Under the pieces are notes generated by a model. The model was not told the origin of the DNA and ran no database searches. It saw only the letters and a program-made list of their open reading frames with translations. A stretch of DNA of 64,000 nt from Octopus vulgaris. Lineage: Eukaryota. The stretch is from NCBI GenBank assembly GCA_951406725.2, contig OX597820.1, positions 79,732,001-79,796,000 of the forward strand, written 5' to 3'. Positions 5,163 to 47,472 of this stretch are shown piece after piece; the first letter of the stretch is position 1; the number at the start of each line of letters is the position of its first letter. Both the position numbers and the translations under genes were made by a program.

Positions 5163-5455
5163 ATATTAAGGAATGGCCCTGATAGGCCATTCGACTCACT
5201 AGAATATCTATTCCTCCTGGCCTCCTTGCCGATGAGACAAGCCAGTGGTAGATTGACTTGATTAAATTAAATTAAATTTAATTAGGCTAGTTTGCCAAAA
5301 GTACGTCGAAACAATGCATTGTCCAAGGATGATTAGGGTAAATGTTTAAATTTTCCTTTGATTTCTGAATTACTACTATTTAGCGGTTTGAGCTTTGGCT
5401 GCTCTTTCTAGTGAGTCGAATGGCCTATCAGGGCCATTCCTTAATATTGTTGAAA
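5163..5455 (+). mobile_element. Miniature PLE-like element with ~42-bp inverted repeats inside (TA)n
   Basis: atattaaggaatggccctgataggccattcgactcactagaa (5163-5204) is inverted at 5406-5447; (TA)n on both sides; internal HHR fold. Confidence 0.75.
5223..5329 (+). ncRNA. Type I hammerhead-like ribozyme, core CCGAUGA (U4C), long stem II loop
   Basis: tccttg-CCGATGA-gac...gtc-GAAA-caatgcattg-TC-caagga: 6-bp stem I, palindromic stem III, GUC site. Confidence 0.75.
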
Positions 5456-6342
5456 TTATATATATATATATATATATATGTATATATATATATATATACA
5501 CACACATATGTATGTGTATTCGCGCGCGCATATTCATATGTTAAATAGCTTATACATATACTAATGGAATACATATTCCGTATATTCCATGTTAGTTTGT
5601 GTTCTGCAGTTCATGCACAGAAACAGAAAGAGTTTGAGACGCAATAGAATTTTACCGGAACTAGTTGACGTGCACGAAGTATGTTACGTCATTTCCGCTT
5701 GTCTCTTTTATTGAAGACTCGTTCATGACGGCTCACTGACAATTTTCAATGAATACTGCTTTTTTTCTGTATATTCCTAACATTCCCTTTCTAATCTTCC
5801 TAAATGTTAACCAAAATATATTGCCTTCACCTTTTATTGATCTATTTTCTTTTCTCAATTTTAATAAATATTTCTTTCTCTTCCGTTACGTCCTTCACTT
5901 TACAAAAACGTTTTCTTCTGATTTCCACGCACACACGCACGCACGCATGCACACACACACACACACACACACACACACACACACACACACACACACACAC
6001 ACACACACATACAAACACACACACACAGAAGATGGCATGTATTAAATGCGTCGACATAACATACATTCCGTATACTTTATATGGATTTGTATCGGAAGAA
6101 CAATTAAATTTTTATTGAAGTTTCTTATATTATTACATCTGCAGATAATTCTATATGGGAAAAGATTTACGATTTATATACATACATTGTTTTAATACTG
6201 TATTGAGATTAAAACAATAAAGACTTCTATATTTTGTTATTGAAGATTTCTCCTAATAATATTTTTAATCATTGGAGATTCTGCGCCATCAAAAAACGGC
6301 GAATCACACATATTTTAAAAGTTAACAATATCCACCACGCGT

Positions 6343-6737
6343 CTAAGTCGTCGAGCTGGCAAAATCTCTAGCACGGCGGGCGAAATGCTTAGCGGTATTT
6401 CGACTGTCTTTACGTTCCGAGTTCAAATGCCGCCGAGGTCGACTTTGCCTTTCATCCTTTCGGGGTCGATAAATTAAGTACCAGTTACGCACTGGGGTCG
6501 ATGTAATCGACTTAATACCTATGTCTGTCCTTGTTTGTCCCCTCTGTGTTTAGCCCCTTGTGGGTAATAAAGAAATAAGTATTTCGTCTGTCTTTACGTT
6601 CCGAGTTAAAATGCCGCGGAGGTCAACTTTACCTTTCATCCTTCCGGGTTTGATAAATTTAGTACCATTTATGTACTAGGGTCGATCTAATCGACTGCCC
6701 CTCTCCCCCGAAATTTCAGCCCTTGCGCCTAGAAAAG
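6343..6737 (+). mobile_element. Dimeric SINE family A
   Basis: Same two-unit layout as 1140-1545; diverged TSD aatatccaccacgc / aatattcatcacgc. Confidence 0.85.
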
Positions 6738-6779
6738 AATATTCATCACGCATATAACTTTAAAAAAAAATCTTTATAT

Positions 6780-7190
6780 TTGATTTAATCATTGGACAAC
6801 GGCCATACTGGGGCACCAGTTTCAAGGGTTTCAGTCGAACAAATCATACCCAGTATTTATCTTCTTTTTTAAAAGTCTGGTACTTATTATATCCGCCCTT
6901 TGTACAGTTATACCGAGTCACTAAGATACGGTGGCGTAAACAGACCAACACCGGTTGTCAAGCGATGGTGCTGGGCAACCACAAAAATCACACACGCGCG
7001 CATAGCCGTATTTTGTCTGTCATTACGTTCTGAGTTCAAATTCCGCCGAGGTCGACTTTGCCTTCCATCGTTTCGGAGTCGATAAATTAAGTACCAGTTA
7101 CGCACTGGGGTCGATGTAATCGACTTAATCCGTTTGTCTGTCCTTGTTTGTCCCCTCTGTGTTTAGCCCCTTGTGGGCAATAAAGAAATA
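6780..7190. mobile_element. SINE family B tail (minus, 6780-7000) abutting a family A unit (plus, 7005-7190)
   Basis: Similarity to other copies in the window. Confidence 0.7.
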
Positions 7191-44402: not shown

Positions 44403-44964
44403 ATATATATATATATATATATATATATATATATATATCATATAAATAATATCTATGTGTATTGTGTGTGTTAATCTTAGTTGTTTTGTCCTGTTATTTT
44501 GCAATATGATGGGGCACTCTTCACTTTTGTAAAGTACAAATAATCATTCTTAAACAAGAATATTATTGACTGTCTAACGATGGCTTAACTAGCCAAAACT
44601 TCGCAGTCCCTGTCAATAACATCCCTGTTTAAAAATAATATGTATATATGTATATATTTGTGCGTATGTACGTGTGTTTGTGTCCCCTCAGTTTGACAAC
44701 TGGTATTCGTAACATAGTGGTTCGGTGAAAGAGATCGATAGAATAAATACTTGATTAAAAAAAATAGCAAGTATTTCGGGTGGTCCTGTTTGACTGACAC
44801 TTTATTTTATCGTTCCCAGAAGGATGAACGTCATAGCTGACTGTGGTAGGATTTGAAATCAGAACGTAAAGAACCAAAACAACAACAACAACAACAAAAA
44901 CTGTACGGCATTTTTACTGACACCGTAACGGTTCTGCCAATTTATTACTCTCAATTATATTGAT

Positions 44965-45360
44965 ACAAGGCGACCTGGCAGAATCGCTGGCGCGCCGGGC
45001 GAAATGCTTAGCCGTATTTCGTCTGCCGCTACATTCTGAGTTCAAATTCCGCCGAGGTCGACTTTGACTTTCATCCTTTTGGGGTCAATTAAATAAGTAC
45101 CAGTTACGCACTGGGGTCGATGTAAACGACTTAATAATAATAATAATAATAATAATCCTTTCTACTATAGCCACAAGGCCTGGATTTTCTGGGGAGGGGG
45201 ACAGTCGTTCACATCGTCCTCAGTACTCAACTGGCACTTAATTTATCGACCCCGAAAGGATGAAAGCAAAGTCGACCTCAGCGGAATTTGAACCCTGAAC
45301 GTAGCGGTACACAAAATACCAGTAAGCATTTCGCCCGGCGTGCCAGAGATTCTGCCGGGT
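44965..45360. mobile_element. Two family A SINEs tail-to-tail around (AAT)n
   Basis: Plus copy 44965-45135, minus copy 45155-45360. Confidence 0.8.
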
Positions 45361-46341
45361 TTACAACAACAACAACAATTATAATGATGGTGATTGTCAA
45401 AGTGGAAAGAATTTTACTTATATTGCTGAAATAATTCTTGACAGAGAATTTAAATTCTTATAAAGATGAAGATCAGTAGATTTGAAGTTTGCGTTAAAGA
45501 AACTAGGCGAATGGAGCACGTTCACACCAGTAAATATGCAGAGAGAGAGAGAGAGAGAGAGGTGGGTAGGAGAGAAGACAACTTGTTACTAATTTAACTC
45601 AAATGACTATTTTCACAGCTCTTAAATATATATTGAAAAAAAGAAAAAAAGGAATTTACCATCTATTGATGAATTAATGAAGCTATACAAGTATTCCTCA
45701 TCAAGTGCTTTTACTCTCTCTTGAGAGTTTTTCAGAAGCAATAGTTACTTTGATTCTATTTATAAAGCGGTTTCATCTTCCATTTATACGACCATTGATT
45801 ACAAACGAAACATTCTCAAACAATCCCATATTGACCAAATGAAACACAACATCACTCTCTCTCTCATAAATATGCTTATTCAAAACCACGGTCGCAATCA
45901 TAGCATGAGCTGCAATTTATTCTCACAGCGCAAGCCGATGTTTAATTATATGGAACAAACCAAAACTTGCTTACATAATTATTTTTAAAAATTGTAGTAG
46001 TACTACGCTTCTGAAATGATGAAATTATTTCAAGCTGATTTTGTTTCACCACTGCCTCTTTTTTTTAATGATTATTCAGTTAGTTTCTTCTACACTCTAA
46101 GCTAAATTGCCTGAGTCATGAATATGTTTATCTATAGTTCAAGGTTTCGTATCAAGTTAAAGGCATTGGGTTTGTCATTGTAGAAATGGTATATAAAAGT
46201 TGAGTGTTTAGTTCTCAAATGCCGTATGTGTTCGAATAAAGATATTTTTTCGGCAATTTTCCTATTTGTTACAAAGGTAATATGTGCGTGAATTCACTAC
46301 AAAATAGCGACTTTATATCATATATATATATATATATATAT

Positions 46342-47472
46342 ACCGGAGTAAACACATAAATGTGAAACAAGGTGGAAAAAAGAGTACTCAAATACCAGTG
46401 GTAGAGTAATATGCTTTATTTTAAGCAGCAGAAAATTCAACAAAATCTGTTACTCTGAGTTTCTCGTTGCCGTTCATCAGACAGTTTTTGCTAGAATGGA
46501 ACATATATATTAATTCAATCTATACTCTTACAAACGCTACACATTTAAAAAGAAATGGACTTGTTTGATTGGCCCTTTAGAAAAAACGGTCAATCTTCGA
46601 GCGATAAACAAAAAGGTCAAAATATATGTATATATATATAAAAAAAACTTATAAAAATTATAAAATCCGAGGGAAAAAACCGAGGAAAAAACCTATTGCC
46701 GTTAATGAAGACAGTACAAATTAATGCATAGAAATTAAACCTGTTATAAATACTGCAATACATATTTATATTAAAATCCACATATATATATCAACATACA
46801 CAAAAGGATGCGCGTAAACGCCATACATACATATACAGACGTATGAATATGAATCTAAATTATACACATAAAAGCATGTGTACATATATTCACGCAAACC
46901 GTCTCGCACGCAAGCTAAAATTCATCTATGTAGCAATTCTCAGTATATGAGAATTGCTACATAGATGAATTTTAGCTTGCGTGCGAGATTTGCGTGAATA
47001 TATGTACACATGCTTTTATGTGTATAATTTAGATTCATATTCATACGTCTGTATATGTATGTATGGCGTTTACGCATCATCCTTTGTGTATGTTGATATA
47101 TATATGTGGATTTTAATATAAATATGTATTGCAGTATTTATAACAGGTTTAATTTCTATGCATTAATTTGTACTGTCTTCATTAACGGCAATAGGTTTTT
47201 TCCTCGGTTTTTTCCCTCGAATTTTATAATTTTTATAAGTTTTTTTTATATATATATACATATATTTTTGACCTTTTTGTTTATCGCTCGAAGATTGACC
47301 GTTTTTCTAAAGGGCCAATCAAACAAGTCCATTTCTTTTTAAATGTGTAGCGTTTGTAAGAGTATAGATTGAATTAATATATATGTTCCATTCTAGCAAA
47401 ACTGTCTGATGAACGGCAACGAGAAACTCAAATGTAAAGATTTTGTTGAATTTTCTGCTGCTTAAAATAAAG
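46342..47472. mobile_element. PLE-like element forming a ~1.06-kb palindrome (arms 46414-46942 and 46948-47472) in (TA)n
   Basis: Centre gcaattctca-gtata-tgagaattgc; arms match out to ctttattttaagcagcag. Confidence 0.8.
46447..46484 (-). ncRNA. Minimal type I hammerhead-like ribozyme, canonical core
   Basis: ctgt-CTGATGA-acg gcaa cga-GAAA-ctcagag-TA-acag; GNRA-capped stem II with a basal mismatch; damaged inverted copy at 47402-47439. Confidence 0.72.

What the first reader, a model, noticed from the sequence alone, without database searches (positions are those of the whole stretch)
5163..47472. Recurrent tail-to-tail (fold-back) PLE insertions in (TA)n
Seen: at least six unrelated elements share the layout (TA)n - element end ... 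inverted copy of the same end - (TA)n. They are 5163-5455, 13996-19798, 19876-21550, 42641-42900, 43385-44402 and 46342-47472, with spacers from 0 bp to ~4.5 kb. Established: PLEs often have inverted, 5'-truncated pLTRs and some clades target microsatellites. Inference: (TA)n is self-complementary, so both 3' ends of a break could prime reverse transcription on the same RNA end. This would give converging cDNAs that mimic TIR transposons/MITEs and produce long dsRNA or cruciform substrates.
Basis: partly seen in the sequence, partly recalled or inferred. Interest (0 to 1): 0.75.

Follow-up and report, generated by a model that had tools for sequence, protein, structure and literature searches.

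The report
Retroelements copied from both break ends
These mirror-image repeats sitting in TA microsatellites are insertions of Penelope-like jumping genes whose two arms nearly always end at two different fixed points, which likely means that both ends of the cut chromosome each start a DNA copy of the element's RNA, a possible answer to how this class of elements builds its puzzling inverted structures.

Summary
The inverted arms are real, but there are seven elements, not six. They are head-to-head, not tail-to-tail. Three belong to autonomous Penelope-like (PLE) families (one Hydra-type, one Hydra-like, one Neptune-like); four to ~480-500-nt tandem non-coding families. Inverted copies and a one-sided 'tail' are known for PLEs.

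What I did not find in print is a rule. In the family of 46342-47472, 84 of 97 sampled insertions have one arm ending at a distal site (tail) and the other at a proximal site about 70 nt upstream; none has two tails. Inner junctions vary. Either arm can be the longer (19 vs 15). Both arms share one source haplotype (24 of 24), and 11 of 36 long pairs stop within 40 nt of each other (about 1 expected). Six other families mostly follow the rule; two window elements lack a tail.

Best reading (0.7): both ends of a cut (TA)n prime reverse transcription at two internal start sites, as seen in vitro for a lizard PLE, and the cDNAs are joined. The scan noted similar fold-backs earlier in another genome.

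The parts
5167..5204 (-). E1 short inverted arm; ends 13 nt before the family's usual proximal end
5202..5456 (+). E1 long arm; piece of a ~486-nt tandem non-coding unit, ends at the unit's internal (TA)6 (proximal site); no tail; no hammerhead core found
13996..19121 (-). E2 long arm (5.1 kb, proximal end, no tail): 5'-truncated Neptune-like PLE with 1.4 kb of CA/TA microsatellite in its 3' UTR
16247..17932 (-). E2 frame with RT (Pfam RVT_1, E 4e-8), CX4CXXC linker and start of GIY-YIG nuclease; the ORF is split by frameshifts, with upstream pieces at 17802-18425 and 18365-19121
19121..19798 (+). E2 short inverted arm carrying the tail (last ~16 nt of the family tail missing)
19879..20123 (.). 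E3a: separate mini fold-back of a ~496-nt tandem family whose other copies carry a hammerhead core; both arms end at the proximal site, right end abuts E3b
20127..21178 (-). E3b long arm: 3' end of a Hydra-like PLE (last 63 codons of the nuclease ORF, 3' UTR, hammerhead core at 20310, tail with internal deletions)
21176..21547 (+). E3b short inverted arm, proximal end, 38-nt deletion through the hammerhead 3' half
42641..42736 (-). E4 inverted arm, proximal end
42735..42900 (+). E4 tail-bearing arm of a ~478-nt tandem family with a hammerhead core
43385..43740 (-). E5 inverted arm, proximal end, hammerhead core at 43577
43763..44402 (+). E5 partial tandem (143 nt + one 500-nt unit), ends with the ~110-nt tail; hammerhead core at 44099
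46342..46942 (-). E6 tail-bearing arm (unit 2759-3356 of a 3356-nt Hydra-type PLE); hammerhead core at 46480
46939..47472 (+). E6 proximal-end arm (unit 2750-3284), 9 nt longer at its 5' end; joined through the 4-nt microhomology CTCA; hammerhead core at 47406
47473..48315 (.). (TA)n target tract right of E6; like tracts flank the other elements (5111-5166, 5457-5498, 13953-13996, 19799-19879, 21548-21612, 42898-42919, 43143-43393, 44403-44456, 46320-46341)

Best explanation
These are head-to-head insertions of Penelope-like retroelements in (TA)n, with one arm ending at a distal and the other at a proximal fixed site, likely made when both 3' ends of the cut target prime reverse transcription, one at each of two internal start sites of the element RNA. 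Shown: the geometry, the one-tail rule, variable inner junctions, a shared source haplotype, and coincident 5' breakpoints. Inferred: the GIY-YIG nuclease, probably as a dimer, cuts both strands of (TA)n. One end primes at the distal site and the other about 40-160 nt upstream, depending on the family. Both cDNAs run toward the RNA 5' end, probably on one RNA molecule with the trailing enzyme displacing the leading cDNA. Their 3' ends are then joined by short microhomology or filler, and each is copied on the other. The tail is the stretch between the two start sites. Partial tandems arise when one enzyme reads on through a tandem or circular template. The 150-250-bp MITE-like hairpins would arise when both enzymes stop just upstream of the hammerhead. 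The ~500-nt non-coding families would borrow the same machinery.
For: E6 family, 97 insertions from three samplings. Tail-anchored: 36 of 37 two-armed, all distal+proximal, including five with tandems, four of whose far ends I predicted and then fetched. Proximal-anchored: 34 of 40 have a tail-bearing partner, 5 are single, 1 is a possible proximal+proximal. Tail hits without an exact partner: 14 of 20 have a proximal partner, 2 more probably. No tail+tail. The proximal arm is the longer one in 19 of 37 long and 21 of 38 mini insertions, and in 3 of 75 the tail arm lies wholly inside the tail; a single target-primed cDNA folding back on itself cannot give these. Arms differ at 8 of 486 diagnostic positions within insertions against 4690 of 10661 between insertions, 24 of 24 concordant. 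11 of 36 long pairs start within 40 nt (permutation mean 1.07, maximum 7 in 20,000). Microhomology of 3 nt or more at 11 of 58 junctions against 6.8% for random joins; 20 of 58 carry filler. Six other families: 78 distal+proximal, 1 tail+tail, 2 proximal+proximal, 2 unclear. In vitro, the anole PLE protein cuts and extends both target strands and starts at two internal sites that bound the tail (PMC11167929, main text read).
Against: All evidence is genomic; no intermediate was observed. PMC11167929 saw no difference in start site between the two strands and did not test pairing within one event. A free self-primed hairpin trimmed asymmetrically would give the same final geometry. Two window elements (E1, E3a) have no tail, and one E4 copy (L192) has two. 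Single-armed copies exist (about 1 in 6 of an unselected run of 28 tail ends). Exact tail junctions outnumber proximal ones about 3 to 1; older subfamilies explain most of this in a sample of 20, not genome-wide. Haplotype sharing could also come from one active source per cell or from gene conversion between arms, so it does not prove one RNA molecule. Microhomology enrichment is modest, and 4 of the 11 cases are one CTAG hot spot. Samples are the best or first hits, not random draws.
Confidence: 0.7

Rival explanations
1. Self-priming hairpin: an antisense RNA, or a free cDNA, folds back at its 3' end and is extended into a hairpin with two tails, which the nuclease trims at the distal site on one arm and the proximal site on the other before integration. 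This extends the self-priming model of Arkhipova et al. 2013.
For: Proposed in print for head-to-head palindromes (PMC3846280, discussion read). It predicts identical arms, near-equal breakpoints and hairpin-like junctions, as at E6 (CTCA-5 nt-TGAG). PMC8557442 ascribes the tail to nuclease resolution of an intermediate.
Against: The version with a target-primed cDNA is excluded wherever the tail-less arm is the longer one (19 of 37 and 21 of 38; E2 itself). The free-hairpin version needs an integration step not shown for PLEs, whereas target priming on sense RNA at both tail boundaries is shown in vitro (PMC11167929).
Confidence: 0.15
2. Some fold-backs are propagated whole: an existing palindromic insertion is transcribed and reinserted as a unit, MITE-like, so the rule would reflect a few founders.
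For: Several minis share the junction 3204/3204 at CTAG. An unchecked scan note reports edited hairpin RNAs copied back into DNA in another genome (e1-8673030).
Against: Long insertions have distinct junctions and span several haplotypes. The CTAG-region junction recurs in diverged subfamilies (L216, L260, L270), as a hot spot would.
Confidence: 0.07
3. Two independent insertions into the same (TA)n tract, or a later inverted duplication.
For: (TA)n tracts do take several insertions (E3a beside E3b; two minis in L216).
Against: 33 outward pairs and 0 inward; the arms usually abut or overlap, with short fillers rather than target (TA)n tracts; same haplotype in 24 of 24. A duplication would copy the same outer end, not a different one.
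Confidence: 0.03
4. True terminal-inverted-repeat DNA transposons or MITEs (I first took E1 and E3a for TTAA-type MITEs).
For: E1 and E3a look symmetric in the window, with TTAA-GG ends.
Against: Their family copies have variable inner junctions, tandem units, single-armed copies and unequal ends. Three families encode RT plus GIY-YIG nuclease.
Confidence: 0.01
5. Assembly or fold-back read artefact.
For: This window's own E6 junction was not among the rows shown; E1-E5 were not checked on reads.
Against: Head-to-head joints of the family stand in short-read contigs of 4 runs from 4 studies and two organism labels. An artefact would not give two base-exact, unequal outer ends or arms diverged by up to 2-17%.
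Confidence: 0.02

Closest known systems
Hydra-clade PLEs (Craig et al. 2021, PMC8557442; section 11 and passages read)
   Same: E6 family ORF has RWK, DKT, CxCX5C linker, C-terminal GIY-YIG; hammerhead core; (TA)n target; inverted 5'-truncated copy and one-sided tail as drawn for PLEs generally.
   Different: Unit is 3.36 kb (paper: generally under 3 kb); tails are 40-160 nt rather than 30-40; the paper gives no frequency, no pairing rule and no two-ended priming model.
Poseidon PLE of Anolis (PAc) in vitro (Frangieh et al. 2024, PMC11167929; main text read)
   Same: Both target strands cut and extended; two internal, non-homologous RT start sites that bound the tail; predicted dimer; uncleaved RNA is the template.
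   Different: No link is drawn to inverted arms (the only 'inverted' in the text is a blocking nucleotide) and no strand difference in start site was seen; here each two-armed insertion uses one of each site.
Adineta vaga Penelope palindromes (Arkhipova et al. 2013, PMC3846280; parts 2-4 of 5 read)
   Same: Head-to-head inverted pLTRs with palindromic junctions and an optional tail.
   Different: Explained there by self-priming on an antisense template; copy numbers too low for statistics.
L1 twin priming (Ostertag and Kazazian 2001; recalled, not read)
   Same: Both ends of the cut target prime on the RNA and the cDNAs are joined by microhomology.
   Different: L1's second primer anneals at variable internal sites and the two cDNAs barely overlap, giving a 5' inversion; here both sites are fixed and the cDNAs overlap almost fully, giving a palindrome.
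Non-LTR retrozymes (bioRxiv 10.64898/2026.07.22.740005; abstract, introduction and part of methods read)
   Same: Short tandem non-coding units with a type I hammerhead, proposed non-autonomous PLE derivatives; fits E3a, E4, E5.
   Different: The parts read do not discuss the two-armed geometry; E1 shows no hammerhead core.

Membership tests
Penelope-like elements (EN+) | RT with C-terminal GIY-YIG nuclease in one ORF | tested here: met
   E6 family: open 727-aa frame in L039 with YRDD and GIY-YIG-type motifs read by eye (no Pfam hit). E2: RVT_1 E 4e-8. E3b family: RT and nuclease pieces. Not applicable to E1, E3a, E4, E5, which are non-coding.
Penelope-like elements (EN+) | 5' truncation, partial tandems (pLTR), inverted copy, optional tail | tested here: met
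   All seven families; for E3b no tandem was seen in the fetched stretches.
Penelope-like elements (EN+) | Hammerhead ribozyme in the pLTR | tested here: inconclusive
   CUGANGA...GAAA cores in E3a, E3b, E4, E5, E6 families; degenerate in E2, none in E1; no Rfam family reached its gathering score; activity untested.
Penelope-like elements (EN+) | RT phylogeny sister to telomerase | not tested
   No tree built.
Hydra clade (E6 family) | RWK and DKT motifs, CxCX5C linker, no CCHH, (TA)n target | tested here: met
   LRWK, SDKT, CNCKNESSC in P0001 against the definition in PMC8557442 section 11; absence of CCHH judged by eye; no phylogeny. E3b family has RIRW and DKT but no clear CxCX5C, so only Hydra-like.
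Neptune clade (E2) | CX2-5CxxC linker before a C-terminal GIY-YIG, DKG motif | tested here: met
   CGRPNCKTC and ADKG; clade placement by tree not done.
Naiad/Chlamys | N-terminal nuclease, C-terminal RT | tested here: not met
   The nuclease follows the RT in E2, E3b and E6 families.
Non-LTR retrozymes (E1, E3a, E4, E5) | Short tandem non-coding units, each with a type I hammerhead | tested here: inconclusive
   Units of 486, 496-502, 478 and 499 nt; cores in E3a, E4, E5, none in E1; circular RNA not testable here.
TIR transposons / MITEs | Fixed symmetric termini with a fixed interior | tested here: not met
   Unequal ends and variable junctions.

The most novel reading that the evidence does not exclude
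Endonuclease-bearing Penelope-like elements integrate by an asymmetric two-ended reaction: a dimer opens a double-strand break and its two RTs start at two different fixed sites on one RNA, so a palindrome with exactly one tail is the default product. This one reaction would explain the tail, the inverted pLTR, the palindromic junctions and thousands of MITE-like hairpins per family, and would make PLEs a large unrecognised source of genomic palindromes.
Probability: 0.5. Interest if true: 0.78.

Novelty: new member of a known kind. Interest (0 to 1): 0.6.

Why it matters
How PLEs form their tandem and inverted structures is named as an open problem in PMC8557442, and PMC11167929 leaves the steps after priming unvalidated. 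The one-tail rule ties that paper's in vitro results (two strands, two start sites, a predicted dimer) to the inverted arms, and gives sharp predictions for an assay that already exists. In practice, one family has at least 4,868 tail ends, and 22-24 of 28 consecutive ones are two-armed. About half of the proximal-anchored sample are 150-250-bp hairpins that look like MITEs and could be misfiled as DNA transposons. Seven such elements lie in this 64-kb window. Whether they feed dsRNA, editing or small-RNA pathways is untested.

Tried and rejected
TTAA-type MITE reading of E1 and E3a: rejected. Naiad: rejected by domain order. Rfam: nothing at gathering score in the window or 8 loci; the E-value scans gave only microsatellite-driven miRNA hits and chance hits. 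First proximal pattern (element's own CATAT run into TA): only 16 matches; the true junction differs by one base. Two-source arms: 39 discordant calls looked like arms from different RNAs, but many lay in a low-complexity stretch; with unit 2680-2730 left out, 8 of 486 scattered mismatches remained. Stops at the predicted hammerhead cut (unit 3247/3248): few; most minis reach 3194-3229. Tail arms stopping near the proximal site (7 of 38 minis at 3274-3303) fit a collision on one RNA but do not exceed a uniform expectation, so I do not count them. The clustering of read joints at 47439-47443 is probably due to private changes in the window's arm; not used. No RNA holder listed. Empty orthologous sites: no relative genome is held, and flank contigs stop at the (TA)n. 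Rows dropped before counts: duplicate loci of one insertion (L104 and overlapping loci in E1, E3b); three tandem-inner pairs and multi-piece junctions from the breakpoint statistics; L288, whose apparent partners are a 75% related family; L143 and L059, kept as unclear; the far tail hit paired with L250 by coordinates is probably another insertion. Paper searches found no two-ended priming model for PLEs; subscription papers such as the 2005-2008 Penelope papers and all supplements were not seen and may bear on this.
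Full report
1. Observation. Self-BLAST and pairwise alignment confirm inverted arms beside (TA)n at all six intervals (sequence). The interval 19876-21550 is two elements, E3a (19879-20123) and E3b (20127-21547), so there are seven. Their arms are unrelated. The window lies in an unnamed 2.8-Gb genome, G000:C7:79732001-79796000; size and microsatellite load suggest a cephalopod, which is my inference only.

2. What the elements are. E6 is the 3' end of a young family. 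[quoted passage not shown] E2 is Neptune-like (RVT_1 E 4e-8, CX4CXXC). The E3b family encodes a Hydra-like RT and nuclease, and E3b's 'spacer' holds the last 63 codons. E1, E3a, E4 and E5 belong to non-coding tandem units of 478-502 nt, three with hammerhead cores. Rfam did not confirm any hammerhead. By ORF and hammerhead direction the 3' ends face outward: head-to-head in the terms of PMC3846280. For E1 the direction rests on family geometry only.

3. Outer ends fixed but unequal. In the E6 family, arms end either at unit 3355-3358 (distal, T) or at 3284 (proximal, S), nearly always base-exact and followed by (TA)n. Genome-wide exact counts: 4,868 T junctions, 1,663 + 16 S junctions, 69 read-through junctions, controls 0. 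Three samples were read. (a) The 40 best hits of a tail query are 37 insertions: 36 two-armed, all S+T, 1 single. Four tandem cases whose far end was predicted from the rule and then fetched, or fetched whole, obeyed it, as did insertions with tandems on one or both sides (L039, L101-103, L112, L115). (b) 40 of the first 43 listed S junctions (3 were already held): 34 with a T partner, 5 single, 1 possible S+S with a 10-nt arm. (c) The first 20 T junctions with no exact S partner: 14 have a diverged S arm, 2 probably, 2 single, 2 interrupted. Total 84 of 97 clear S+T, 0 T+T. By coordinates alone (45 S and 100 T hits on C1), 33 outward S/T pairings, no inward, no T/T or S/S inverted pair. Of 28 consecutive T ends, 22-24 are two-armed.

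4. Other families (both ends seen, duplicates merged by hand). E2: 14 S+T among 20 loci. E3b: 13 among 29 loci. E4: 13 S+T and 1 T+T among 30. E5: 19 S+T and 1 unclear among 30. E1: 8 S+T, the window copy tail-less, 1 unclear, among 30. E3a: 9 S+T and the window copy tail-less among 20. With the window's E2 and E3b this makes 78 S+T. The other loci showed no partner, partly because only 1.5 kb of flank was held. E2, E4 and E5 were sampled with tail-bearing queries; for E1, E3a and E3b the matched part of the query carried no tail. In E1 the proximal site is an internal (TA)6, so a tail could be lost by slippage; that is a guess.

5. Inner junctions. They vary, so these are not TIR elements. 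Among 75 simple S+T insertions the S arm reaches further 5' in 19 of 37 long and 21 of 38 mini cases, the T arm in 15 and 9; in 3 the T arm lies inside the tail. A cDNA primed at S and folded back cannot acquire a tail, and one primed at T must be the longer arm, so a single target-primed cDNA is excluded for about half the events, including E2 (S arm 5.1 kb, T arm 0.68 kb) and E6 (S longer by 9 nt, joined at CTCA). 11 of 36 long pairs start within 40 nt of each other against 1.07 by permutation. Arms share the source haplotype in 24 of 24 testable insertions, and are closer to each other than to other insertions in 35 of 36. Microhomology is modestly enriched (3 nt or more: 11 of 58, null 6.8%), and 20 of 58 junctions have filler, some templated. 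Minis mostly reach unit 3194-3229, upstream of the predicted hammerhead cut at 3247/3248, so their template was uncleaved or circular.

6. Reads. Contigs of four runs (four studies, two organism labels; one may be the assembly's source) show head-to-head joints between the E6 arms, i.e. fold-back junctions of other family copies (15 joints shown, 22 not shown).

7. Mechanism. PMC11167929 shows in vitro that a PLE protein cuts and extends both target strands, starts at two internal non-homologous sites that bound the tail, uses uncleaved RNA and is predicted to dimerise. It does not mention inverted arms. Put together with points 3-5: each end of the break primes one cDNA, one at T and one at S; both run 5'-ward, often to the same point, which suggests one RNA; they are joined and filled in. 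Shown: geometry and statistics. Inferred: the double cut in vivo, the dimer, one RNA, strand displacement, the joining enzyme. Confidence 0.7. The main rival, a self-primed free hairpin trimmed asymmetrically (after PMC3846280), yields the same products and cannot be excluded from genomes alone (0.15).

8. What is known. [quoted passage not shown] PMC9977147 was checked by passages and is not relevant. Eight searches found no statement of the pairing rule or of two-ended priming for PLEs; older subscription papers and supplements were not seen. L1 twin priming is recalled, not read. Two unchecked scan notes describe PLE fold-backs in another genome.

9. Verdict. The elements are new members of known kinds and their anatomy is known. 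The strict one-tail rule, with arm-length symmetry, shared haplotype and coincident breakpoints, appears new and makes an open mechanistic question testable in an existing assay. Interest 0.6.

Noticed in passing
window:13544-13911: An older AT-rich fold-back (77% self-complementary, about 370 bp) between a (CA)n and the (TA)n left of E2; possibly an eighth element of the same kind.
   Followed up: no
window:44973-45360: Two copies of a high-copy dispersed repeat in inverted orientation around a (TAA)n; the same repeat recurs at 1141-1544, 6344-6732, 39926-40238, 61428-61673 and 62594-62990.
   Followed up: no
window:27775-29160: Another decayed Hydra-like PLE on the minus strand (CRCASECPLQGAC linker, nuclease frame 27775-28458), with long Asn-rich stretches; hammerhead-like core at 29159.
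   Followed up: no
window:23568, 25926, 54001: Further hammerhead-like cores outside the listed elements; the stretches at 29100-29200 and 53950-54050 resemble each other by eye.
   Followed up: no
L100:3545-3570 and L067:1975-1990: E2 and E1 units carry their own short (TA)5-6 tract at a start site, so in these families the primer could pair with the RNA, unlike E6.
   Followed up: partly
L039 unit 3172-3207 (window about 46490-46525, minus strand): A TATAGA about 30 nt upstream and a CCATTC just upstream of the point where most minis stop; could mark a transcription start, motif names recalled.
   Followed up: no
window:47428-47440: The proximal arm of E6 has a cluster of private changes across the hammerhead cleavage site, absent from the other arm.
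   Followed up: no
window:14650-16050: 1.4 kb of mixed CA/TA microsatellite is a heritable part of the E2 element's 3' UTR, present in other copies.
   Followed up: partly
L219:529-3884: A 3.3-kb stretch sits exactly at the inner junction of a mini fold-back, splitting its arms.
   Followed up: no
window:11519-12826 and 7936-8334: Fragments of decayed non-LTR retrotransposon frames on the minus strand (RVT_1 E 9e-4 at 12404-12826) and an unassigned frame at 7936-8334.
   Followed up: no
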